64,000 nucleotides of DNA. Source: Escherichia coli. Lineage in GTDB: Bacteria > Pseudomonadota > Gammaproteobacteria > Enterobacterales > Enterobacteriaceae. The stretch lies in NCBI GenBank assembly GCA_025544715.1, contig GCA_025544715.1_4109.2; one strand, written 5' to 3'. The notes below the pieces were generated by a model. The model was given only the letters and a program-made list of their open reading frames with translations, was not told where the DNA came from and did not search any database. Positions 3,097 to 25,985 of the stretch are shown one piece after another (position 1 is the stretch's first letter; every line of letters begins with the position of its first letter). A program made the translations under genes and the position numbers.

Positions 3097-3371
3097 TATT
3101 CAACCTTATCATAAACAAGTTTGTGTGTGCTTAGTACTTTGTTGTGATGTCCAGGGCATTCATATACATACAATCGCTCCTGACGTTTTTCCCAACCACC
3201 ACAGATACGACCTGATTGTGTACATATTTCATACTCGTTAATAAAAGACTTGCCTGTGAATGTACAATCCTGACGAACTAAGTCTTTTGCACTAAACCTG
3301 CCGTCATCATTACATGCTGTAAGAAACATTGTACAGAATACAACAAACACAGTCAATAGTTTTTTAATCAT
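3096..3371 (-). CDS. putative lipoprotein (91 aa)
   Basis: N-terminal signal peptide ending in lipobox-like LTAC. Confidence 0.5.
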   Translation of the reverse strand: MIKKLLTVFVVFCTMFLTACNDDGRFSAKDLVRQDCTFTGKSFINEYEICTQSGRICGGWEKRQERLYVYECPGHHNKVLSTHKLVYDKVE

Positions 3372-3736
3372 TTAAGATCTCCCCAACGGCAACCCTTCAT
3401 ATGATTCAAATTCACCTCAACTATTTCATGTGTGTCAGTGCACAATATCGACAGTTTTTTTGTAAAATCACCTGGTGAACTTTCATATTTCACACAATAG
3501 CCCTCGATACGGAGAACCGAATGGGTCCATGATTCCCACTCAATCCAAATTTCATTTGGGTGATATACAATATCTTCGTTTAGCTTGTGATATTCATCTA
3601 GTGGAAGCTGTGTAGTGATATCAACATATTTTACATTTCGAATGAGTTTTTCAAGCTGATATTTTGCATTAGCAAGATATTCTTCATCATTCAAACGTTC
3701 TAAGATATTTGCTGCACGAGTAGTATCAATACTCAT
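3368..3736 (-). CDS. hypothetical protein (122 aa)
   Basis: ORF track; 4-nt overlap coupling. Confidence 0.45.
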   Translation of the reverse strand: MSIDTTRAANILERLNDEEYLANAKYQLEKLIRNVKYVDITTQLPLDEYHKLNEDIVYHPNEIWIEWESWTHSVLRIEGYCVKYESSPGDFTKKLSILCTDTHEIVEVNLNHMKGCRWGDLK

Positions 3737-3738
3737 TG

Positions 3739-3984
3739 TTATTCTCCATGAACCACTGATGTATGCATACGAATTTTCCCACTCGTATGCGACGAAGAAG
3801 TGTTTGCATTAGGACAGTACACAGTGTATAAAGTCGCACCAGCACCATCTTGTTGCATACGATAAATCTTACACCCTGCTTCTTTTAATTCAGCAGGTAG
3901 AACAAAATCACTTGTACGTTCTTTGGTAGAAGCATCACATGCAGTGAGAAGGAAAGCGACGAGTACTGCTACGATATATTTCAT
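3739..3984 (-). CDS. putative lipoprotein (81 aa)
   Basis: signal peptide MKYIVAVLVAFLLTAC with lipobox-like LTAC. Confidence 0.5.
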   Translation of the reverse strand: MKYIVAVLVAFLLTACDASTKERTSDFVLPAELKEAGCKIYRMQQDGAGATLYTVYCPNANTSSSHTSGKIRMHTSVVHGE

Positions 3985-4292
3985 TAACGAACCTCCACTT
4001 CTTGAGAAAGAGCATGAGTCAGTGCATTTGAATTCGAACCATTCATTTCACGCTGACATACAAACATAATGGCATCTTGTACTGAACCTGCGATTTCATA
4101 CTCACGACCTTCTGGATCAGTTACCAGATGTTCAACGATACAACCACCACGCAGTACTGATGCACCAGTACTTACACTAATTCTGTAACCTAAGAAATCA
4201 AACTGCATACATGCGTCAGTAGGTTTCATCCAATAACCGCTGTTTTGATTCAAATCGATGATTACAAAACCTTGAGTGTTAGTTTGAAACAT
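3984..4292 (-). CDS. hypothetical protein (102 aa)
   Basis: ORF track; GAGGAA-like RBS upstream. Confidence 0.45.
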   Translation of the reverse strand: MFQTNTQGFVIIDLNQNSGYWMKPTDACMQFDFLGYRISVSTGASVLRGGCIVEHLVTDPEGREYEIAGSVQDAIMFVCQREMNGSNSNALTHALSQEVEVR

Positions 4293-4859: not shown

Positions 4860-5078
4860 TTAATTGATAATTTGATATTCACGATGACCATAGAAGCCAG
4901 CTTCAAGGATGCGATTACCATCAACATCTTCCAAGTCCCAACCACGGGATGTTTCGGCAATAATAGTCATGATGTGTCCTTTGGTAAAGGTTCCACTCAT
5001 AGTGGATACATCTTCAAGTAATTGAACTTTCTTTCCAACATTGGAATTCGGTTTAAACATTTTATGGCCCTTATTCAT
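4860..5078 (-). CDS. hypothetical protein (72 aa)
   Basis: ORF track. Confidence 0.35.
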   Translation of the reverse strand: MNKGHKMFKPNSNVGKKVQLLEDVSTMSGTFTKGHIMTIIAETSRGWDLEDVDGNRILEAGFYGHREYQIIN

Positions 5079-5253
5079 TGATCACATCAAGTACTTTATC
5101 CAGCTTTTTACCAATGCTTTCCTTTGGTTTCTCACCATTCTGGAATACATTAGAACTGCAATACTCAGGACGCGTATTAGGAAACTTCTCGTTCATCCAG
5201 GAGTGACCGTAAACACCCAGCATGATGCCAACGATAAGAATGATAATTTGCAT
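5071..5253 (-). CDS. hypothetical small membrane protein (60 aa)
   Basis: ORF track; hydrophobic N-terminus. Confidence 0.3.
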   Translation of the reverse strand: MQIIILIVGIMLGVYGHSWMNEKFPNTRPEYCSSNVFQNGEKPKESIGKKLDKVLDVINE

Positions 5254-5268
5254 GATAATTTCCTCTGA

Positions 5269-6057
5269 TTAAATGTTAGTAGTATAGTACTTGATTTCGT
5301 TTTGAATTGCAAGTTCTATTTGTTTATTGAAAAGAATTCCAAACTCTTTGATTGATTCACAATCGAATTCAATAGAAAAAGTATACTCTGGTACACGTAC
5401 ATTGTCAATACCCAAATACTCTTTTATGTAAATTTTAATGAGTTCACATAGTGCAGTACTAAGACATTGAATTTCAAAATGTTTTGCACCTTTGTCAAAA
5501 TACTTGAATGCATCAATATCACCTACAATAAAACTATTCTTTAATGTAGTGAATAGGTTCTCAGGAAACACGGTAATAGGTGACATTGATTTAAGAATGT
5601 ATGTATCTTTTGCATTCTTAATGTACTCAATGAAGCAGTAGTTAACGTCAGGCTCGATTGAACGATCCGCGTTATGATACCAGTGTTTAAACTCACTGTA
5701 TTCAGCAAACTTATGCTGGCGTAATGCGTTACAATCTTCACACAGTGCAGTCATGTTCTCTTTATCATTACCGCCCTGAAGACAGTCCAGTACGTTATGG
5801 TCTAACGTCATGCGTACAAGACGTTTCCCTTTAAGTACATAAGGTCTGAATTTATAACGTTCTTTAGTACTGTGCTTGTGTAAAGTGAATACTACATTGG
5901 ATTCACCACAACAATCACATTTAAAGCCATCACGTGACATTACATGAATAAGTTTGCGTGTGTTCGGTCCAAACTCAGATTTAGTAATTTTATCCACAAT
6001 TTCTGATGGTTGGTAATATTTTGAATTCCGTTGAATCAGTTCATCGATAGTGCTCAT
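5269..6057 (-). CDS. HNH endonuclease domain protein (262 aa)
   Basis: Cys-x2-Cys pair plus DHNVLDCLQGGNDKENMTALCEDCN, an HNH-type motif. Confidence 0.55.
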   Translation of the reverse strand: MSTIDELIQRNSKYYQPSEIVDKITKSEFGPNTRKLIHVMSRDGFKCDCCGESNVVFTLHKHSTKERYKFRPYVLKGKRLVRMTLDHNVLDCLQGGNDKENMTALCEDCNALRQHKFAEYSEFKHWYHNADRSIEPDVNYCFIEYIKNAKDTYILKSMSPITVFPENLFTTLKNSFIVGDIDAFKYFDKGAKHFEIQCLSTALCELIKIYIKEYLGIDNVRVPEYTFSIEFDCESIKEFGILFNKQIELAIQNEIKYYTTNI

Positions 6058-6288
6058 TTACATTATTCCTTCTATGCAACAACCAAGAATTACTTTTTTA
6101 ACTTCAACAACTCGTACCAAATAGAATCCATTTGAAAAGTTAAAACTATACATTTGTACTAAGGCATCTGCTTCAGATTTCGCACGTATACATGATAGAT
6201 AAATTTCACGTATATCACCATCTAACGATACTTGTTTCTCTGCATCGATGACAATAGAACGAATCTCAAAACGAACACCATAACTCAT
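6058..6288 (-). CDS. hypothetical protein (76 aa)
   Basis: ORF track. Confidence 0.35.
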   Translation of the reverse strand: MSYGVRFEIRSIVIDAEKQVSLDGDIREIYLSCIRAKSEADALVQMYSFNFSNGFYLVRVVEVKKVILGCCIEGIM

Positions 6289-6494
6289 TGAGTTTGTCCT
6301 ACAATAAGCTTTGTGTTAGTATTGCTATTGTAACACCACATACTTTCTTTACTAACTGTCATAAGTGACATGTGGTTTACTTGATCATAAGTACTGTCAC
6401 GTACAGAAAAACATTGGTTCATTGAGTTCATTGGGGTTATTTGTACACCGGAATTAACAGAGAAAGCGACTACTAAAAAGATTACTGAATTCAT
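6285..6494 (-). CDS. hypothetical protein (69 aa)
   Basis: ORF track; AAGGAA RBS and promoter upstream. Confidence 0.35.
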   Translation of the reverse strand: MNSVIFLVVAFSVNSGVQITPMNSMNQCFSVRDSTYDQVNHMSLMTVSKESMWCYNSNTNTKLIVGQTQ

Positions 6495-6558: not shown

Positions 6559-6587
6559 ATTCTACGCGAATGATTAATAAATGTCAA
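6559..6587 (-). promoter_or_regulatory. sigma70-like promoter (TTGACA-17-TAGAAT)
   Basis: minus-strand reading; leader contains hairpin CATCTCgaaGAGATG. Confidence 0.45.
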
Positions 6588-7145: not shown

Positions 7146-8111
7146 TTAGAAATCTTCGTATTCGTACCCTTTTGCAAGTACTAGCTTCTTAAGCTTTTGC
7201 ATAGCTTCACTGTACTTTCGATGTATTGATGAACGGGATTTAACATATTTTCCATTATCATCAACAAAACCATTATCAGCAATCTCACGAAGCGTTTCAG
7301 GTTCATATTCACCTAGACCATGAACACGCTGGATAATCTCACGTTCTTTAGTACTCAATTCGTTAGTCAGTTCATTGATAGCATAACGTAAAGGTGCACG
7401 AATACTATCAACATTGAGGTTAAAATCAGAAGCAGGTGAATGAATAATGTCACCTAGTGTACCATCTGTAACACCGTCTAATGGTGCATCCAGTGAAGTG
7501 TATTCGCTTTGAAATAACAAACAATTATTAACATGCTGAATCTCAATCCCAGTACCCTCTGAGATTATTTCAGGAGTTGGGCGAACACCATGTTTACGCA
7601 TATATTCTTGGCAGAATCTTTTTACTTTGATCTTATGAACACTCATATAACGTGGGAAGTGTACCATATAGTTAGCGTCAGAACTTTCGTTATAAACTGT
7701 CATGTAAATACTAGAAGAAGCATAGGTAATGAACTTCACATTCTTATTAAGATCAAAGGTTTTTAGTGCTCTCATGAACCCCTCAACACCATATGAAATC
7801 TTATCTTCAAATGGGATATAACAAGTACATTTACTTGCTACATCAATAATAAGTCCATAATTGTAACGAACTAACAGTTCAGTGTTTTTCTTTACATTGA
7901 TACCAGCTTGAATATCACGAATTAGATCTTCATTGGTAACATTTTGTGGTCGCTTAAGTGTAATATTATATTTGAAACTGCTTTGTACTTTACCTTCATT
8001 TTCATCTTTATCTTCAACGAAATCTAAGGCTTCTAGTGTGTTGACTTCTTCATTAGCAAAACATTCATCCAGAACTTCTTCGGCAATTGTATTTAAATCA
8101 AGCTTTTTCAC
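7146..8111 (-). CDS. RNA polymerase sigma factor, sigma-70 family (321 aa)
   Basis: region 2-like GFMRALKTFDLNKNVKFITYASSSI and region 4-like LSTKEREIIQRVHGLGEYEPETLREIAD. Confidence 0.6.
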   Translation of the reverse strand: MKKLDLNTIAEEVLDECFANEEVNTLEALDFVEDKDENEGKVQSSFKYNITLKRPQNVTNEDLIRDIQAGINVKKNTELLVRYNYGLIIDVASKCTCYIPFEDKISYGVEGFMRALKTFDLNKNVKFITYASSSIYMTVYNESSDANYMVHFPRYMSVHKIKVKRFCQEYMRKHGVRPTPEIISEGTGIEIQHVNNCLLFQSEYTSLDAPLDGVTDGTLGDIIHSPASDFNLNVDSIRAPLRYAINELTNELSTKEREIIQRVHGLGEYEPETLREIADNGFVDDNGKYVKSRSSIHRKYSEAMQKLKKLVLAKGYEYEDF

Positions 8112-18389: not shown

Positions 18390-18580
18390 TATTCATCCTC
18401 GTACTTCTTGAATGGTGGAACATCTACCTTGAAGTCTTTGCACATCTTAGTTGTACGAACTTCAGTATTGTTGTGATAATTTTTCTTAAATTCATAAGAA
18501 ACATAATTACGAATACCAGGTGTATGAATAATAGCAAGAACCAATGTACGACCAAACAAGCATAATAAATTCCAGAACAT
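18389..18580 (-). CDS. hypothetical protein (63 aa)
   Basis: ORF track. Confidence 0.3.
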   Translation of the reverse strand: MFWNLLCLFGRTLVLAIIHTPGIRNYVSYEFKKNYHNNTEVRTTKMCKDFKVDVPPFKKYEDE

Positions 18581-18589
18581 ATGAATCTC

Positions 18590-18955
18590 CTAATTGTGGG
18601 TTTTAACTAAACGTGAGACAGCTAGTATAGCATTAACCTCATCCAATGTCAACCCACCAATGTCATTAATCATTGAGTACTGAAATAGTGATTCTTCAGT
18701 GTAATGGTAATCATGAGAAGCAATAAAGATTGCTGGTTTAGATGCATCCAAAATTATCTTTGTCATTGTACTATATATATCAAATTGATACAATAGATTT
18801 TCACTTGTATATGCTATGTAGATATTATTTGAATAGGCTGGATGTACCATTGTAAAACCATCATAACATAATATTTTTATGTTCGGATCGTCAAAATTGC
18901 CTGTATAAAGGTTATTACAAACATCTTGCATTATACGTACTATTAGACTAGTCAT
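18590..18955 (-). CDS. EE-x-FFQ-x-S motif paralogue family protein
   Basis: C-terminal YTEESLFQYSMINDIGGLTLDEVNAIL. Confidence 0.55.
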   Translation of the reverse strand: MTSLIVRIMQDVCNNLYTGNFDDPNIKILCYDGFTMVHPAYSNNIYIAYTSENLLYQFDIYSTMTKIILDASKPAIFIASHDYHYTEESLFQYSMINDIGGLTLDEVNAILAVSRLVKTHN

Positions 18956-19379
18956 TTAATGGATTTAGTACCTCTTCTGGAATCAACTTTTGAACTTTAA
19001 GTATAGCTTTAATGTCATCAAATGTCAATCCACGTAGGTCGTTTAGGAGGCAGTACTGGAAGAATTTTTCTTCAGTATTTATATCGTCAATATTCATTTG
19101 GATTGATTCGTTATCATCATCATAATCATAATCTTCATTATCACAATAATAACTTCTGAATATAACTCGTTCAAAATACACATCAAATGAATAAAAATGA
19201 TTATCGATTTCATATCCAAGAAAAATATTAAAACATGTATTTAAATCTGTTGTTTCATTTAAATTTGTGTCAAAACAAAAAACTCGCACTTCACCAATAT
19301 CATCTATATATTCATCTTTGAGTGACCATGTGTTGTTTTTTAATACATAGTTCACAAGTTCAACGATGTTGTATTTCAT
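18948..19379 (-). CDS. EE-x-FFQ-x-S motif paralogue family protein
   Basis: C-terminal NTEEKFFQYCLLNDLRGLTFDDIKAIL. Confidence 0.55.
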   Translation of the reverse strand: MKYNIVELVNYVLKNNTWSLKDEYIDDIGEVRVFCFDTNLNETTDLNTCFNIFLGYEIDNHFYSFDVYFERVIFRSYYCDNEDYDYDDDNESIQMNIDDINTEEKFFQYCLLNDLRGLTFDDIKAILKVQKLIPEEVLNPLND

Positions 19380-19391
19380 AGTGTACCTTTA

Positions 19392-19441
<50 letters not shown>

Positions 19442-19498
19442 TAATTGAGAAGTAAGATAACCAACAAGTCTCCATACTCTTTCGCATTGAGGGGAGGC

Positions 19499-19631
<133 letters not shown>

Positions 19632-19691
19632 ATTGGCCTCTTTATGTTAAAAACCCCAGTTTTCTTCTTGAACCATATTACACCTCATTCA

Positions 19692-19772
<81 letters not shown>

Positions 19773-19791
19773 GCATACTCGAAGTACCTCT

Positions 19792-19940
<149 letters not shown>

Positions 19941-19941
19941 G

Positions 19942-20415
<474 letters not shown>

Positions 20416-20427
20416 TTAAATACTCTC

Positions 20428-21107
<680 letters not shown>

Positions 21108-21113
21108 AACTTA

Positions 21114-21653
21114 TTAACGTTCATCATCATGAATCTCACGATGACAATTAGCACAAACCATAATACATTTATCTAGTTCTATTTTGATTTTTTCAAAAGA
21201 ACGAGTTGAACCTTCTTGACTAATTGAAAAATCTTTCTGTGAAGGGTCAATATGGTGAAATTCTAATGCCGCAATGCATTTATTATAACCACACTTTTCG
21301 CAGCAACCACCTTTGTATTCAACAGCTAATATTTTTAATTTTCTACGTCTATCCGAAACACGTTGACTGTCACATTTTGAGCATTTCCATTTACCTTGTG
21401 AATTTAAATCATAATTCTTATTGTGTATTTCACAAAATCTCATTTCATTCGTTGACTTTGGTCGTTTAACACCATGTGATTCAATAATGTTATTGATTCT
21501 TGATCTATTACACTTATATTCTTTGGCTAAACCGTAAATTGGCATACCATTTAAATACTTCTGAATTATTTCATTCTCTGGTAATTTAGAACTTTTCGCC
21601 TTTATTGCTTCGGCTATTTTGTTGCGTGTTTCTTCTGATTGTTTTCGTCCCAT
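21114..21653 (-). CDS. HNH homing endonuclease (179 aa)
   Basis: N-terminal GRKQSEETRNKIAEA (NUMOD-like) and C-terminal LEFHHIDPSQKD...CANCHREIH; adjacent to tRNA cluster. Confidence 0.6.
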   Translation of the reverse strand: MGRKQSEETRNKIAEAIKAKSSKLPENEIIQKYLNGMPIYGLAKEYKCNRSRINNIIESHGVKRPKSTNEMRFCEIHNKNYDLNSQGKWKCSKCDSQRVSDRRRKLKILAVEYKGGCCEKCGYNKCIAALEFHHIDPSQKDFSISQEGSTRSFEKIKIELDKCIMVCANCHREIHDDER

Positions 21654-21718
21654 GAACCTTAGACCTCATAATATCCATTATGATATTATTTATTGTTCCA
21701 AGGTTCATAGTTAATTTG

Positions 21719-21802
21719 CTGGTAGTACTGGAGTCGAACCAGTCTTGTCATTTCTGACACGGATTAACAGTCCGTTGCATAAGGCCGATATGCTAACTAC
21801 CA
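21719..21802 (-). tRNA. tRNA, anticodon GUU as read (Asn), but with a long class-II variable arm; identity uncertain
   Basis: hand fold: 7-bp acceptor, D-arm GCAT/ATGC, anticodon stem ACGGA/TCCGT with loop CTGTTAA, 15-nt variable arm, T-arm ACTGG-TTCGACT-CCAGT. Confidence 0.5.
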
Positions 21803-21814
21803 TTTGTTTTAAAT

Positions 21815-21894
<80 letters not shown>

Positions 21895-21897
21895 GTA

Positions 21898-22391
<494 letters not shown>

Positions 22392-22753
22392 ATCACCAAC
22401 TTTAATTAAAAAAATGGATGGTGACGCGTTTAAACGCCGCTGTTAATTCAGCTTTATAACCACCCGTTTTAACTTACCTTTCGGCTACCTTGACGTGGGG
22501 CGTACAGGCTACTAAAAGCAACTTCTGTAAACATATTTCCACGCCTTACCATTTTAAATAAAAGTCCATCCGGTTTTCCAGTTTGGTGAAGGACTGTCAC
22601 CTCTAGTTTCAACCTGCTAGTCAAGTAATAATTGCCTATCGTCCAATTATCAAACCCGTCTAGGTTAACATTCACCACTTCCTAGAGTACCAGAGATCTT
22701 GTTCTGGATAGCATCGACGTAACTTACACCATATACGTCTGATTGTGGAATTC
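22392..22753 (-). ncRNA. candidate promoter-driven structured RNA or long leader (~360 nt)
   Basis: ORF-free, visibly GC-richer stretch immediately downstream of a consensus promoter. Confidence 0.25.
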
Positions 22754-22778
22754 ATTATATCAGTACTGAACTATTTAG

Positions 22779-22782
<4 letters not shown>
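22754..22782 (-). promoter_or_regulatory. sigma70-consensus promoter (TTGACT-17-TATAAT), cassette copy 2
   Basis: near-identical to the cassette at 21995-22023. Confidence 0.55.
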
Positions 22783-23191
<409 letters not shown>

Positions 23192-23204
23192 GCTTTTTTT
23201 TTAA

Positions 23205-23365
<161 letters not shown>

Positions 23366-23369
<4 letters not shown>

Positions 23370-23526
23370 ATTCGTACCAGTAGTTCAATTAAGTACATTT
23401 CATATGCTGGATCGTTGATAAGTTTATCATACAGATGTGGCTCTGAAATGAATTCCCAATGATACTCTAACCACTTACCAAAACCTGCATATCTAAAATT
23501 AATGTCATTCATCCATTCTTCATGTG

Positions 23527-23530
<4 letters not shown>
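23366..23530 (-). CDS. MTHEEW small-protein family member (54 aa)
   Basis: hand translation MTHEEWMNDINFRYAGFGKWLEYHWEFISEPHLYDKLINDPAYEMYLIELLVRI. Confidence 0.45.
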
Positions 23531-23790
<260 letters not shown>

Positions 23791-23794
23791 TATT

Positions 23795-23910
<116 letters not shown>

Positions 23911-23927
23911 ATGTGATGTCCCATTAT

Positions 23928-24146
23928 TTATGCAAGTGCTTTAGATACACCGACACCAATAATTCCAGTGATAGCGATATGGATATTGACAAGTTGATTA
24001 CTATCATATGGGTTTGTTTCTGTAATAACCAATGTTGTATCATTGACTAAAACCACAGTGCCTTTTACACGATACCCATGTAGTAGTACTTGAACCTCAT
24101 CTTCAGGTTTTAATGATTGAATAACTTCAAATAAAGTTGTTTCCAT
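23928..24146 (-). CDS. hypothetical protein (72 aa)
   Basis: ORF track. Confidence 0.35.
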   Translation of the reverse strand: METTLFEVIQSLKPEDEVQVLLHGYRVKGTVVLVNDTTLVITETNPYDSNQLVNIHIAITGIIGVGVSKALA

Positions 24147-24162
24147 TTTTTATATTCCTTGT

Positions 24163-24345
24163 TTAGTTTTGATTATTTGATTTTCTAAATGCCAGTTCGC
24201 ATATAAACCAAGGTTTTCTGGTATCCAAAACATATGACCTGAAAAGATTTTCATCTCTTAAGATATCATAATGTACCTGACGAATGCCATTTCCAAAGCA
24301 ATCATGTTCTTTATGCTGTTTGGACATCCATTCTTCGTGTGTCAT
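24163..24345 (-). CDS. MTHEEW small-protein family member (60 aa)
   Basis: track ORF 24163-24363 trimmed to the internal MTHEEWMSKQHKEHDCFGNGIR start. Confidence 0.4.
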   Translation of the reverse strand: MTHEEWMSKQHKEHDCFGNGIRQVHYDILRDENLFRSYVLDTRKPWFICELAFRKSNNQN

Positions 24346-24346
24346 T

Positions 24347-24682
<336 letters not shown>

Positions 24683-24687
24683 TCTTA

Positions 24688-24864
24688 CTATTTTTTGTCT
24701 CTAATTGCAAGCTCATAGATGAACCAGTGGTTGCTATCCCCATCCAATACAAATGATTTGAAAAGTTGTTTATCTTTTAACACATCATAATGACCTTGGC
24801 GTATACCAAAACCAAAAGGATTATGTTTGAATTTTAGTTCATCTAACCATTCTTCATGTGTCAT
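24688..24864 (-). CDS. MTHEEW small-protein family member (58 aa)
   Basis: hand translation MTHEEWLDELKFKHNPFGFGIRQGHYDVLKDKQLFKSFVLDGDSNHWFIYELAIRDKK. Confidence 0.4.
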   Translation of the reverse strand: MTHEEWLDELKFKHNPFGFGIRQGHYDVLKDKQLFKSFVLDGDSNHWFIYELAIRDKK

Positions 24865-25035
24865 CTCTTAATATCCATAACGGCTATACTAAAATATGTA
24901 CTAAAATCATCACAGTGAATGATATTGTTATAGTACGATTCGGGATCATTTAACAATAAAAACAACTCCAACTTAAAAAAGTATACATCACCTGCATTTA
25001 TATTGTAATGCATTTGATACCACTCGTCAAATGTT

Positions 25036-25440
25036 TTAGGCTGCACTGTATTTACCTTTATAAAAATCCATAATTTTAGATAACAGTACTGCAATAGTAT
25101 AATCTAAATCTGGATAAAGTAAATTGTACTGAAATTCTTCCTCTACACTGTAGTTAGTGGTGCAGTACTGGTAGTCTTTATAACCTATTGAAAAATAATT
25201 CGGATACAATGTACAACGAAAACGATATGCTTCATCTGTCATATAATCATTGTATTCAACACAGAAGTATAGTGATTTGGCATTTAATTCAATAAGCTCA
25301 ACGAAACCATCTGGTAATGAATGGTTATAAATGACTGAATCTTCATTAAACCATTCATAGTATTTTTCCAAAAAATCACTAATGGACACATCCAGACTTT
25401 GTATAGGTGGAGTTATGATAATTTGAACTTCGTTATTCAT
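25036..25440 (-). CDS. EE-x-FFQ-x-S motif paralogue family protein (divergent)
   Basis: C-terminal SVEEEFQYNLLYPDLDY. Confidence 0.5.
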   Translation of the reverse strand: MNNEVQIIITPPIQSLDVSISDFLEKYYEWFNEDSVIYNHSLPDGFVELIELNAKSLYFCVEYNDYMTDEAYRFRCTLYPNYFSIGYKDYQYCTTNYSVEEEFQYNLLYPDLDYTIAVLLSKIMDFYKGKYSAA

Positions 25441-25985
25441 TTCGACCCCTTACTATATTTCACGTATGGGCTATCATACAGATCATAACTTTTTTGTGCA
25501 CGTTCTTTTCGGCGTTCATACATGATTCTATCATACTCTTTAGCTTTCTGATTTGCTTCATTATACAATTTTAAAATTAGCAAAAATGCATCAAGATCGG
25601 GATAGTTTGCTGGATTGATAGTACTCAGCATAAATCGTTCTTCTTCAGTTCTAGCTAAGTCAAATTCATACTTAATAGTTTTATACCCACTCCATTTATA
25701 TATATGCGTTACTTTATTAGTAAGTACATTATATTCAACGAAGTCAGTACTACCATCAAGTACACGAGTAATCTTAATAGATGTACCAATGACAATCTGT
25801 ACAGAACTCATTTCTGAAGTTTTAAAGTAATAAATGTTATTACGGCGAAGATTAACTTCTCGATCTCCAATGCGAACATGCTTAATAACTTCCATTAATG
25901 GTTCTGGTACACCACGAATTGGCATGTTAATGCTCCTTTTTAATTCTATACATTTTAACAGCACTGGTTTCCCAAAAGTCACCAT
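25437..25985 (-). CDS. EE-x-FFQ-x-S motif paralogue family protein (182 aa)
   Basis: ARTEEERFMLSTINPANYPDLDAFLLIL with longer basic tail. Confidence 0.5.
   Translation of the reverse strand: MVTFGKPVLLKCIELKRSINMPIRGVPEPLMEVIKHVRIGDREVNLRRNNIYYFKTSEMSSVQIVIGTSIKITRVLDGSTDFVEYNVLTNKVTHIYKWSGYKTIKYEFDLARTEEERFMLSTINPANYPDLDAFLLILKLYNEANQKAKEYDRIMYERRKERAQKSYDLYDSPYVKYSKGSK

What the first reader, a model, noticed from the sequence alone, without database searches (positions are those of the whole stretch)
5269..6057. Free-standing HNH endonucleases, one at the edge of the tRNA cluster
Two HNH proteins (5269-6057 and 21114-21653) are present; the second carries a NUMOD-like N-terminus and sits directly beside the tRNA genes, a common homing-endonuclease insertion site in T4-like phages. 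This supports the view of the tRNA region as a mobile-element hot spot.
Basis: partly seen in the sequence, partly recalled or inferred. Interest (0 to 1): 0.35.

Follow-up and report, generated by a model that had tools for sequence, protein, structure and literature searches.

The report
Two HNH homing endonucleases; one tRNA-Asn-linked
Both genes are real, intact HNH nucleases of an E. coli jumbo phage: one is an old resident of the lineage, and the other is a patchily distributed selfish gene from a large phage family that nearly always sits next to a tRNA-Asn gene, which is ordinary in kind but unusually specific about which tRNA it sits beside.

Summary
Both ORFs exist exactly as reported, on the minus strand. 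The window comes from an Asteriusvirus (121Q/PBECO4-like) jumbo coliphage, not a T4-like phage.

**HNH#1 (5269-6057)**
- It is an HNN-variant His-Me nuclease with all catalytic and zinc residues conserved.
- It is syntenic and has diverged at the same rate as its neighbours down to 59% identity. Its nuclease domain is under strong purifying selection (dN/dS 0.05).
- It is cleanly absent in ECO103 4-12-1 and truncated in phage A4. I read it as an old, near-fixed free-standing endonuclease.

**HNH#2 (21114-21653)**
- Its architecture is NUMOD3, HTH, Zn-ribbon, HNH.
- It is absent from nearly all close relatives. G17 has a different tRNA-Asn/tRNA-Met pair at that site and no HNH.
- It is shared only with WPEC5 (94%) and with Klebsiella Alcyoneusviruses (65-76%), always about 65 bp downstream of tRNA-Asn.
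- In 71 non-redundant IMG/VR loci of the family, 36 have tRNA-Asn as the immediate neighbour (odds ratio 16, p=5e-17), with nucleotide-precise geometry.
- A stable hairpin sequesters its SD and AUG, as in T4 homing endonuclease genes.

The closest known system is T4 SegB (GIY-YIG), whose preferred cleavage site is a tRNA-Asn gene. No cleavage or homing was tested.

The parts
5269..6057 (-). HNH#1: 262-aa HNN-variant His-Me finger nuclease (N-terminal about 130 aa) plus a helical C-terminal domain with no known relative
   Evidence: ORF. phrog_35175, E=1e-187. Invariant C47, C50, D86, H87, N101, C106, C109, N110. AF2 model pLDDT 89; best PDB fold hits are HNH nucleases (Gme 4h9d, McrA, Cas9 HNH), none significant. 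dN/dS 0.05 for aa 1-150 and 0.42 for aa 151-262 against WPEC5.
6058..6288 (-). 76-aa ORF (121Q gp169-like, phrog_28392) whose stop codon abuts the ATG of HNH#1; absent together with HNH#1 in ECO103 4-12-1
   Evidence: sequence ...GGAATAATGTAAATGAGC; for the joint absence. Not present next to the HNH#1 orthologue in the more distant contig L092, so it is not an obligate partner.
5278..6315 (.). 1038-bp presence/absence segment relative to phage ECO103 4-12-1, which has 86 bp here and intact flanking ORFs
   Evidence: blastn breakpoints; junction sequences and translated flanking ORFs.
21114..21653 (-). HNH#2: 179-aa free-standing HNH endonuclease with NUMOD3 motif (2-18), helical HTH-like module (about 26-60), CHCC zinc ribbon (74-94) and HNH beta-beta-alpha-Me domain (118-175)
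   Evidence: AF2 model pLDDT 88. Alignment to the McrA and LtrA HNH motifs.
21650..21710 (-). RNA hairpin between tRNA-Asn and HNH#2 that pairs the Shine-Dalgarno sequence (AAGG) and the AUG of HNH#2
   Evidence: MFE -26.4 kcal/mol, z=-7.5 against shuffles. Retained in WPEC5, Muenster and RCIP0023, with one fully compensatory pair and one one-sided change.
21718..21802 (-). tRNA-Asn(GTT), 85 nt, with a 13-15-nt extra variable arm; the conserved upstream partner of HNH#2
   Evidence: ARAGORN. Rfam tRNA 47.5 bits. Same arrangement in WPEC5, Muenster, RCIP0023 and Aeromonas phage 4_4572.
21816..21894 (-). tRNA-Met(CAT), part of the segment with no nucleotide similarity to the G17 allele
21899..21988 (-). 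tRNA-Ser(GCT), first gene of the operon; 98% identical to the tRNA-Ser of Klebsiella phage Muenster
21995..22023 (-). sigma-70-type promoter TTGACT-17-TATAAT upstream of the tRNA operon, conserved in G17, JP4 and WPEC5
   Evidence: Read from the sequence and the alignment. Function is inferred.
21108..21909 (.). Segment (HNH#2 + tRNA-Asn + tRNA-Met) with no detectable nucleotide similarity to HNH-less relative G17, but 78.5% identical to Klebsiella phage Muenster over 21120-21812
   Evidence: blastn segment map.

Best explanation
Both genes are free-standing HNH-family homing-type endonucleases of an Asteriusvirus jumbo coliphage, at different stages of the homing-endonuclease life cycle. HNH#2 (21114-21653) is a recently acquired, patchily distributed member of a very large phage family with the architecture NUMOD3, HTH, Zn-ribbon, HNH. 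The home of this family is the immediate flank of tRNA-Asn genes. The inferred mechanism is as follows. During co-infection the enzyme recognises DNA in or next to the tRNA-Asn gene of a genome that lacks it and nicks or cuts there. Repair from the endonuclease-carrying genome then copies in a cassette of hairpin plus HNH, which begins about 10-18 bp after the tRNA 3' end. Repair often carries the neighbouring tRNA genes along as well (co-conversion), which would explain why the whole tRNA-Asn/tRNA-Met module differs from G17 and resembles Klebsiella jumbo phages. Translation from tRNA-operon read-through transcripts is held down by a hairpin that buries the SD and AUG. HNH#1 (5269-6057) is an older endonuclease of a family confined to Rak2-like jumbo phages. 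It sits in an early operon downstream of the phage sigma factor, is translationally coupled to the preceding ORF, is kept functional by selection, and is occasionally deleted. What is shown: gene integrity, distribution, insertion geometry, tRNA-Asn specificity, the predicted hairpin, and selection. What is inferred: cleavage, target site, homing, and regulation.
For: Identity of the phage.

HNH#2:
- Motif intact.
- Among 434 phage records with homologues, only WPEC5 exceeds 90% identity, and the next closest are Klebsiella Alcyoneusviruses at 65-76%.
- G17 has gp134-like, then 20 bp, then tRNA-Asn, with no HNH.
- Window 21108-21909 has no match in G17 but is 78.5% identical to Muenster.
- JP4 (no HNH) and RCIP0023 (HNH) share the same tRNA-Asn allele, and their homology ends about 17 nt 3' of the tRNA, exactly where the hairpin and HNH begin.
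- Family-wide, 65 of 71 non-redundant IMG/VR loci have tRNAs within 1.5 kb, and 36 of 71 have tRNA-Asn as the immediate neighbour. tRNA-Asn makes up 37 of 90 adjacent tRNAs against 13 of 309 non-adjacent ones (odds ratio 15.9, p=5e-17).
- The association holds after clustering at 70% identity (24 of 57 clusters) and in nearest-relative comparison (29 of 36).
- Geometry is nucleotide-precise. In the downstream class the ORF stops in the U8-A9-G10 (TAG) of tRNA-Asn. In the upstream class the ORF starts 40-66 bp after the tRNA.
- In a sample drawn by tRNA pattern rather than by HNH, 16 of 76 long-arm and 7 of 27 canonical tRNA-Asn genes have a family HNH within 300 bp.
- Hairpin. The same regulatory theme is known for I-TevI-III, segB and mobE (PMC2988022).
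- Precedent for the mechanism: T4 SegB cuts the T2L tRNA-Asn gene and replaces about 1.25 kb of tRNA genes (PMC2330249).

HNH#1:
- Motif invariant.
- Present at 95-99% identity in 21 records and about 78% in 9 more, at the same place.
- A 59%-identical orthologue is syntenic in contig L092, where neighbours are 54-82% identical.
- dN/dS 0.05 in the nuclease domain.
- Clean absence in ECO103 4-12-1, and an N-terminal deletion in A4.
- Homologues in Yersinia, Erwinia, Cronobacter and Pectobacterium jumbo phages sit at non-syntenic sites, sometimes two per genome.
Against: - No cleavage, target site or biased inheritance has been measured for either protein.
- For the window, the HNH-less and HNH-carrying alleles differ across the whole tRNA-Asn/tRNA-Met module, so the exact insertion point cannot be read from window against G17. 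It rests on the JP4/RCIP0023 pair.
- The mosaic tRNA region could have arisen by ordinary recombination.
- 24 of 71 family loci sit beside other tRNAs (tRNA-Arg is the second most common) and 11 of 71 have no adjacent tRNA, so the tRNA-Asn link is not absolute.
- IMG/VR loci are not phylogenetically independent.
- The central Asn of the HNH motif is Lys162 in HNH#2. LtrA has Lys at the same position.
- The long residence of HNH#1, its translational coupling and its strong purifying selection fit a domesticated gene as well as they fit a selfish one.
- Hairpin covariation rests on four related sequences, with only one fully compensatory pair.
Confidence: 0.65

Rival explanations
1. HNH#1 is a domesticated phage gene, not a selfish mobile element. 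It would be a nuclease the phage uses for its own benefit, such as excluding co-infecting relatives, degrading host or competitor DNA, or processing DNA.
For: It is syntenic and has diverged in step with its neighbours down to 59% identity. dN/dS is 0.05 in the nuclease domain. It is present in nearly all Asteriusviruses. Its ATG abuts the upstream stop codon within an operon.
Against: It is dispensable: cleanly absent in ECO103 4-12-1/EC22.5-2 and truncated in A4. Paralogues lie at scattered, non-syntenic sites in related genera, which is typical of homing endonuclease genes. It is not next to terminase or any recognisable partner. Marker exclusion by homing endonucleases is itself a homing phenotype, so the two readings overlap.
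Confidence: 0.3
2. The position of HNH#2 beside tRNA genes is passive. On this view tRNA clusters are dispensable, recombination-prone regions where any insertion survives, the endonuclease has no tRNA-related target, and the module arrived by ordinary recombination with a Klebsiella jumbo phage.
For: The region is mosaic well beyond the HNH gene. For example, window 22398-22751 also resembles Muenster and is absent from G17. Several unrelated HNH genes occupy the region in relatives. The T4 tRNA region is described as non-essential (PMC2330249).
Against: Passive tolerance does not predict isotype specificity (tRNA-Asn 37/90 adjacent against 13/309 background, p=5e-17). It also does not predict nucleotide-precise junctions repeated in loci with different neighbouring tRNAs, or the same tRNA-Asn-to-HNH order at 48-76% protein identity across Escherichia, Klebsiella and Aeromonas phages.
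Confidence: 0.12
3. HNH#2 and tRNA-Asn form a functional module selected at the phage level, for example a nuclease acting on tRNA or on tRNA-targeting host defences, or an endonuclease that promotes amplification of an anti-defence tRNA as reported for SegB. On this view it is not a purely selfish homing cassette.
For: Linkage is conserved over deep divergence. The partner tRNA-Asn in the window is an unusual long-arm form. SegB-driven amplification of tRNA-Tyr counters the Septu defence (PMC13096335).
Against: NUMOD3, HTH and Zn-ribbon modules are the DNA-binding modules of homing endonucleases. The gene is missing from almost all close relatives, which keep a tRNA-Asn. Most long-arm tRNA-Asn genes (60 of 76) have no HNH nearby. 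No tRNA amplification is seen in the window.
Confidence: 0.1

Closest known systems
Phage T4 SegB (free-standing GIY-YIG homing endonuclease in the tRNA gene cluster)
   Same: It is a free-standing endonuclease gene inside a phage tRNA cluster. Its preferred cleavage site lies in a tRNA-Asn gene (of T2L). Homing replaces neighbouring tRNA genes by co-conversion, and a hairpin sequesters the RBS (PMC2330249; PMC2988022). SegB homologues are widely co-located with tRNAs (PMC13096335).
   Different: The catalytic fold is different: GIY-YIG against HNH, and no GIY-YIG motif occurs in the window ORFs. SegB homologues were reported to show no preference for a tRNA isotype, whereas the HNH#2 family is strongly biased to tRNA-Asn. 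The target of HNH#2 has not been mapped.
Phage T5 F-TflI / F-TflII / F-TflIV (HNH endonucleases encoded in the T5 tRNA gene region)
   Same: These are HNH-family endonuclease ORFs located in a phage tRNA gene cluster (cited in PMC2330249). Klebsiella phage Muenster carries a TflIV-like HNH a few kb from its HNH#2 homologue.
   Different: No direct sequence comparison with HNH#2 was made here. The primary T5 paper is not in the library, so their sites and isotype relations could not be checked.
NUMOD3-containing HNH homing endonucleases (T4 Mob proteins and Aeh1 MobE; I-HmuI from my own knowledge)
   Same: They combine an HNH nuclease with short NUMOD-type DNA-binding motifs, are free-standing in intergenic regions, and MobE is regulated by a hairpin (PMC2988022).
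   Different: In the Mob proteins the HNH domain is N-terminal and the DNA-binding region C-terminal. HNH#2 has the reverse order and an extra CHCC zinc ribbon. HNH#1 has the Mob-like order, but its C-terminal domain matches nothing known.
Free-standing HNH genes reported in Rak2-like jumbo phages (CBB_420, CBB_528, CBB_535)
   Same: The phage group and gene class are the same. CBB_420 is described as lying at the end of a tRNA gene (PMC5259590). HNH#1 homologues are found in CBB, GAP32 and Yersinia and Erwinia jumbo phages.
   Different: That paper lists them without target, family-wide or isotype analysis. The correspondence of individual CBB genes to HNH#1 or HNH#2 was not established here.

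Membership tests
HNH / His-Me finger endonuclease superfamily | Catalytic His (general base) at the end of the first beta-strand of a beta-beta-alpha-metal fold | tested here: met
   HNH#1 has D86-H87 invariant in 25 sequences. HNH#2 has H133-H134 invariant in 23 sequences and aligned to the HH of McrA and LtrA. AF2 models place strand-strand-helix at these positions.
HNH / His-Me finger endonuclease superfamily | Metal-binding His/Asn in the alpha-helix, and paired CxxC zinc ligands flanking the motif | tested here: met
   HNH#1 has C47/C50 and C106/C109 followed by N110 (the HNN variant). HNH#2 has C118/C121 and C167/C170 followed by H171 and H175. The middle 'N' is N101 in HNH#1 but K162 in HNH#2; LtrA has Lys at the same position.
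HNH / His-Me finger endonuclease superfamily | Significant match to the curated Pfam HNH model (PF01844) | tested here: inconclusive
   Both single sequences score 15.7 bits, below the 21.4-bit cut-off. 13 of 23 HNH#2-family members match at E<=0.01, best 7e-6. PHROG HNH families match strongly. Foldseek top hits are HNH domains but not significant.
Free-standing homing endonuclease gene | Presence/absence polymorphism at one locus among closely related genomes | tested here: met
   HNH#2 is absent at the site in G17, JP4, 121Q and most Asteriusviruses, and present in WPEC5. HNH#1 is absent in ECO103 4-12-1/EC22.5-2, partly deleted in A4, and present in about 30 others.
Free-standing homing endonuclease gene | Lies between conserved genes, not inside an intron or intein | tested here: met
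   HNH#2 lies between tRNA-Asn and the gp134-like ORF. HNH#1 lies between gp169-like and the 60-aa ORF 5071-5253. No intron or other Rfam structure beyond tRNAs was found in 18500-25500.
Free-standing homing endonuclease gene | Site-specific cleavage of the allele that lacks the gene | not testable with these tools
   This needs purified protein and substrate DNA. The candidate substrates are the G17/121Q tRNA operon and the ECO103 4-12-1 empty site.
Free-standing homing endonuclease gene | Super-Mendelian inheritance with co-conversion of flanks in mixed infection | not testable with these tools
   Only indirect evidence exists: the flanking tRNA-Asn and tRNA-Met are replaced together with HNH#2 and resemble the Klebsiella-phage donor type.
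NUMOD3 DNA-binding motif (PF07460) | Match to the NUMOD3 profile | tested here: inconclusive
   The window protein scores E=0.0024 and 18.2 bits, below the 20.4-bit cut-off, at residues 2-18. 9 of 23 family members match at E<=0.01, best 5.8e-5. The motif GRKQSEETRNKI aligns with the conserved family block.
SegB-type GIY-YIG tRNA-cluster homing endonucleases | GIY-YIG catalytic domain | tested here: not met
   Neither protein matches a GIY-YIG family in Pfam or PHROGs, and no GIY-YIG motif occurs in any window ORF. HNH#2 may work like SegB but is not a member.
Terminase-associated (cos-site) phage HNH endonucleases | Gene adjacent to terminase genes or the cos site | tested here: not met
   The neighbours are small early ORFs and a sigma factor for HNH#1, and tRNA genes for HNH#2. 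The class is defined as in PMC3592412 (abstract).

The most novel reading that the evidence does not exclude
One large HNH family (NUMOD3, HTH, Zn-ribbon, HNH and its short forms) is a specialist of tRNA-Asn genes across very diverse phages, from enterobacterial jumbo phages to Aeromonas, Bacteroides and Prevotella megaphage contigs. It inserts with nucleotide precision at either end of the tRNA-Asn gene and thereby drives horizontal exchange of tRNA-Asn alleles and neighbouring tRNAs. These alleles include a widespread, apparently undescribed class of phage tRNA-Asn with a long variable arm. I found no published report of an isotype-specific link between an endonuclease family and a tRNA. The 2026 SegB study explicitly found no isotype preference.
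Probability: 0.5. Interest if true: 0.55.

Novelty: new member of a known kind. Interest (0 to 1): 0.38.

Why it matters
Free-standing homing endonucleases shape phage genomes and, as recently shown for SegB, can mobilise or amplify tRNA genes that counter tRNA-targeting bacterial defences. The two genes themselves are ordinary and are already annotated as 'HNH endonuclease' in relatives. What the comparison adds is a testable, family-wide rule: this HNH lineage lives next to tRNA-Asn, with fixed geometry. That rule predicts where the enzyme cuts. It also offers natural pairs of genomes with and without the gene for crosses (WPEC5 or this phage against G17 or 121Q; RCIP0023 against JP4). Finally, it suggests a route by which tRNA-Asn variants spread between Escherichia and Klebsiella jumbo phages.

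Tried and rejected
1. **Long-arm tRNA-Asn as an immunity allele.** I considered that the 85-nt long-variable-arm tRNA-Asn is an immunity allele carried by the HNH#2 cassette, with the insertion splitting the target site. I rejected this as a general rule for two reasons.
   - Most long-arm tRNA-Asn genes found by pattern in IMG/VR have no family HNH nearby (60 of 76), and canonical ones have one about as often (7 of 27).
   - RCIP0023 (with HNH) and JP4 (without) share the same canonical tRNA-Asn allele.
2. **HNH#1 as a fusion of an invading HNH with a resident small gene.** This was suggested by the 87-aa ORF in phage A4 that matches only its C-terminus. I rejected it because the C-terminal domain is part of the whole approximately 300-aa family. 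A4 is better read as an internal deletion.
3. **The gp169-like ORF as an obligate partner of HNH#1.** I rejected this because it is absent next to the syntenic 59%-identical orthologue in L092.
4. **PDB searches.** Sequence searches gave nothing significant for either protein. Foldseek against the PDB gave only sub-threshold HNH and HTH hits. The C-terminal domain of HNH#1 remains unassigned.
5. **MAFFT alignment across the insertion.** The alignment of the four loci was unreliable and was replaced by blastn segment maps.
6. **NCBIfam.** It gave no meaningful family.
7. **Literature searches.** Searches for an HNH/tRNA-Asn link or for long-arm phage tRNA-Asn found nothing on target.
Full report
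**1. Observation**

Both ORFs are present exactly where reported, on the minus strand: 5269-6057 (262 aa) and 21114-21653 (179 aa). Six tRNA genes lie at 21718-24660, also on the minus strand. tRNA-Asn(GTT) at 21718-21802 ends 64 bp upstream of the HNH#2 start codon.

PHROG profiles annotated 'HNH endonuclease' match both proteins strongly: phrog_35175 at E=1e-187 for the first, and phrog_2255 at E=3e-33 for the second. Pfam HNH is sub-threshold on the single sequences. A profile and motif scan of all 357 window ORFs of at least 50 aa finds no third HNH and no GIY-YIG or LAGLIDADG motif.

**2. What phage this is**

The window is 95-97% identical at the DNA level to Escherichia phages SHEFM2K, phAPEC6, 121Q, G17 and PBECO4. 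Those of them that carry a taxonomy line (G17, 121Q, A4) are classified in Asteriusvirus. It is therefore a 121Q/Rak2-like jumbo myovirus of about 350 kb, not a T4-like phage.

**3. HNH#1 (5269-6057)**

*Motif and fold.* An alignment with 24 relatives, found in the 1.84-billion-protein library and the 5.8-billion-protein collection, shows C47, C50, T84, D86, H87, L90, G95, N101, C106, C109, N110, R113 and F123 invariant. This is a Cys4-zinc HNH motif of the HNN variant (DH...N...CxxCN). The AF2 model is confident (pLDDT 89). Its best PDB fold matches are HNH nucleases (Gme nicking endonuclease 4h9d, McrA, ScoMcrA, Cas9 HNH), though none is significant. The helical C-terminal half matches nothing.

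*Distribution.* tblastn finds the gene in 56 phage records:
- 21 records at 95% identity or more, at the same place.
- 9 records at about 78% (the WPEC5/BF17 clade).
- Homologues at 28-44% in Yersinia, Erwinia, Serratia, Cronobacter, Pectobacterium, Salmonella and Xanthomonas jumbo phages. In Yersinia phage fHe-Yen9-04, the one checked, the homologue sits in a different context, and several of these records hold two copies.

*Vertical inheritance.* A 59%-identical orthologue on a metagenomic contig is syntenic, with the sigma factor upstream and the same small ORFs downstream. Its neighbours are 54-82% identical, so the gene has diverged in step with its surroundings.

*Selection.* Against WPEC5, dN/dS is 0.28 overall, 0.05 for residues 1-150 (97% identical) and 0.42 for residues 151-262 (54% identical). 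The nuclease domain is thus strongly conserved while the presumed DNA-binding domain evolves fast.

*Expression context.* The ATG directly follows the stop codon of the preceding 76-aa ORF (...ATGTAAATG...). A TTGACA-17-TAGAAT promoter-like site lies at 6559-6587 upstream of the operon, although the number of promoter-like sites in the region is no higher than in shuffled sequence.

*Losses.* The gene is not universal:
- ECO103 4-12-1 lacks window 5278-6315 (HNH#1 plus the 76-aa ORF). It has 86 bp there instead, and both flanking ORFs are intact. EC22.5-2, a record of the same length, also gave no tblastn hit for HNH#1.
- Phage A4 keeps only an 87-aa ORF homologous to the C-terminal region of HNH#1 (tblastn match to residues 181-258).

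*Reading.* This is an old free-standing endonuclease at or near fixation, kept functional and occasionally lost. Whether it still homes or has been domesticated cannot be decided from sequence.

**4. HNH#2 (21114-21653)**

*Motif and fold.* The family alignment (23 sequences) shows these residues invariant:
- C74, H77, C91, C94, forming a CHCC zinc ribbon.
- C118, C121, H133, H134, D161, K162, C167, C170, H171, H175.

The motif aligns with the HNH motifs of McrA and the LtrA endonuclease domain. The N-terminus GRKQSEETRNKI is a NUMOD3-type motif. It is sub-threshold alone, but 9 of 23 members match. It is followed by a helical HTH-like module, supported by hits to HTH_23, HTH_7 and CENP-B_N in family members. 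The AF2 model has pLDDT 88. Most relatives have an additional N-terminal treble-clef finger that this clade lacks. The family is very large: 3637 clusters at E<=1e-5.

*Distribution among relatives.* In GenBank phages only WPEC5 has a close copy (94%). The next closest are Klebsiella Alcyoneusvirus Muenster (76%), phiKp_21 (75%), RCIP0023 (65%) and KP13-7 (64%).

- G17 has the gp134-like ORF, then 20 bp, then a 73-nt tRNA-Asn, tRNA-Met and tRNA-Ser(ACT), with no HNH.
- Segment mapping shows 97-98% identity up to window 21107. There is no detectable similarity across 21108-21909 (HNH#2, tRNA-Asn, tRNA-Met). Identity is 79% across 21910-22393, there is no match across 22394-22716, and 95% identity resumes from 22717.
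- The unmatched segment is 78.5% identical to Muenster (21120-21812), and the tRNA-Ser is 98% identical to Muenster's.
- The difference from G17 is therefore replacement of a whole tRNA module plus HNH, not a bare insertion.

*A cleaner pair with and without the gene.* RCIP0023 (HNH present) and JP4 (HNH absent) share the same tRNA-Asn allele. Their homology runs through the tRNA and stops about 17 nt past its 3' end, exactly where the hairpin and HNH ORF start in RCIP0023.

*Other HNH genes in the region.* Relatives carry other HNH genes elsewhere in the same region: a phrog_59-type gene between two tRNA-Ser genes in JP4, and a phrog_1271-type gene 64 bp after tRNA-Thr in WPEC5. This supports the 'hot spot' view.

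**5. Family-wide link to tRNA-Asn**

The order tRNA-Asn followed by HNH recurs in WPEC5, Muenster, RCIP0023 and Aeromonas phage 4_4572. I fetched 80 IMG/VR loci encoding family members, 71 of them non-duplicate, and ran ARAGORN on them.

| Measure | Result |
|---|---|
| Loci with a tRNA within 1.5 kb | 65 of 71 |
| Loci with a tRNA within 200 bp | 60 of 71 |
| Loci with tRNA-Asn(GTT) as immediate neighbour | 36 of 71 (17 upstream, 18 downstream, 1 both) |
| tRNA-Asn among adjacent tRNAs | 37 of 90 |
| tRNA-Asn among non-adjacent tRNAs in the same loci | 13 of 309 |
| Fisher test | odds ratio 15.9, p=5e-17 |
| Clusters at 70% protein identity next to tRNA-Asn | 24 of 57 |
| Asn-associated members whose nearest non-duplicate relative is also Asn-associated | 29 of 36 |

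tRNA-Arg is the second most common neighbour (9 adjacent tRNAs), in a loosely separate subgroup.

The geometry is precise:
- In the downstream class, mostly short proteins of 100-130 aa, the ORF runs into the tRNA and stops at its U8-A9-G10 (TAG). This gives an overlap of exactly 10 nt in nine non-duplicate loci that have several different upstream tRNAs.
- In the upstream class, mostly proteins of 160-265 aa that carry N-terminal DNA-binding modules, which includes the window, the ORF starts 40-66 bp after the tRNA.

In a second sample, drawn by a tRNA-Asn sequence pattern rather than by the protein, 16 of 76 long-arm and 7 of 27 canonical tRNA-Asn genes have a family HNH within 300 bp.

Caveats: the loci are not phylogenetically independent, and the association is strong but not absolute.

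**6. Regulation**

The 64-bp spacer folds into a hairpin (window 21650-21710, minus strand; -26.4 kcal/mol; z=-7.5). Its 3' arm contains the AAGG Shine-Dalgarno sequence and the AUG of HNH#2. The hairpin is kept in WPEC5, Muenster and RCIP0023, with one fully compensatory pair and one one-sided change. Four related sequences are too few for firm covariation.

A TTGACT-17-TATAAT promoter upstream of tRNA-Ser (21995-22023) is conserved in relatives. The likely arrangement is read-through transcription from the tRNA operon with translation held down by the hairpin. This is the arrangement described for I-TevI, I-TevII, I-TevIII, segB and mobE (PMC2988022). It is inferred here, not shown.

**7. 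Mechanism proposed**

HNH#2 most likely behaves as a homing endonuclease whose target lies in or beside tRNA-Asn genes. Cleavage of an HNH-less co-infecting genome would be followed by recombinational repair that copies in the hairpin-plus-HNH cassette and, through co-conversion, adjacent tRNA genes.

The experimentally established parallel is T4 SegB. [quoted passage not shown] A 2026 study showed that SegB homologues are widely co-located with tRNAs and found no favoured isotype. It also showed that SegB can amplify tRNA-Tyr to escape the Septu defence (PMC13096335). HNH#2 is not a member of that family, because it lacks the GIY-YIG domain, but it plausibly works in the same way. The difference is that its family is isotype-specific.

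**8. Comparison with what is known, and novelty**

Free-standing HNH genes in Rak2-like phages, including one at the end of a tRNA gene, have been noted before (PMC5259590). HNH endonucleases in the T5 tRNA region are also known (cited). Orthologues of both window genes are already annotated 'HNH endonuclease' in GenBank. The finding as written is therefore a new member of a known kind.

The part I did not find in the searchable literature is the family-wide, nucleotide-precise association of one HNH lineage with tRNA-Asn.

**9. Rejected ideas**

The 85-nt tRNA-Asn with a long variable arm first looked like an immunity allele carried by the cassette. However, such tRNAs are common in phage contigs without any HNH nearby, and RCIP0023 and JP4 share a canonical allele. 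I treat the long-arm tRNA as a separate observation.

**10. Verdict**

- The phage is a jumbo phage, not T4-like.
- HNH#1 is a long-resident gene rather than a visibly mobile one.
- The HNH#2 family is linked specifically to tRNA-Asn.

No activity was tested, so cleavage, target and homing remain inferences.

Noticed in passing
window 21718-21802 (-): The tRNA-Asn(GTT) is 85 nt long and has a 13-15-nt extra variable arm, like a class II tRNA, while keeping a GUU anticodon and a G discriminator base. I found no paper describing this class. Which synthetase charges it is unknown.
   Followed up: partly
window 19395-19441: This is a remnant of the tRNA-Thr(TGT) gene present in G17, JP4 and WPEC5. 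It is identical to G17 on both sides of a clean 27-nt internal deletion that removes the anticodon arm. Neither ARAGORN nor Rfam calls a tRNA here.
   Followed up: partly
window 23205-23691 (-): Three tandem 54-aa ORFs, each starting MTHEEW and overlapping by 4 nt, lie between two tRNA groups. Copies 2 and 3 are 69% identical, and copy 1 is only about 18% identical to them. JP4 appears to have two such ORFs (147 and 165 bp), so copy number may vary between relatives.
   Followed up: no
L003 (JP4) 3359-3883 and L001 (WPEC5) 914-1309: Relatives carry other, unrelated HNH genes in the same tRNA region. JP4 has a phrog_59-type gene between tRNA-Ser(ACT) and tRNA-Ser(GCT). WPEC5 has a phrog_1271-type gene 64 bp downstream of tRNA-Thr, the same spacing as HNH#2 after tRNA-Asn. 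Different HNH lineages may each have their own tRNA partner.
   Followed up: partly
window 7146-8111 (-): A phage-encoded sigma-70-family sigma factor (321 aa) lies about 1 kb upstream of HNH#1. It is only 60% identical between the two Escherichia clades (dS 1.45), which is much more diverged than the small ORFs downstream of HNH#1.
   Followed up: no
window 22394-22716 (ORF 22469-22678, -): This is a second indel relative to G17. The segment is absent from G17 but present in WPEC5 and JP4. Window 22398-22751 is 81% identical to a region of Klebsiella phages Muenster and RCIP0023 that lies more than 1.5 kb from their HNH gene. Exchange with Klebsiella jumbo phages therefore extends beyond the HNH cassette.
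   Followed up: no
L002 (G17) 3127-3218 versus window 21899-21988: At the equivalent position, G17 and JP4 have a tRNA-Ser with the unusual anticodon ACT (A34), whereas the window and WPEC5 have GCT. JP4 carries both types, separated by its HNH gene.
   Followed up: no
L001 (WPEC5), about 3894-4047: WPEC5 has an insertion of about 150 bp between tRNA-Ser and tRNA-Met that the window lacks. It contains a small annotated ORF overlapping the tRNA-Ser.
   Followed up: no
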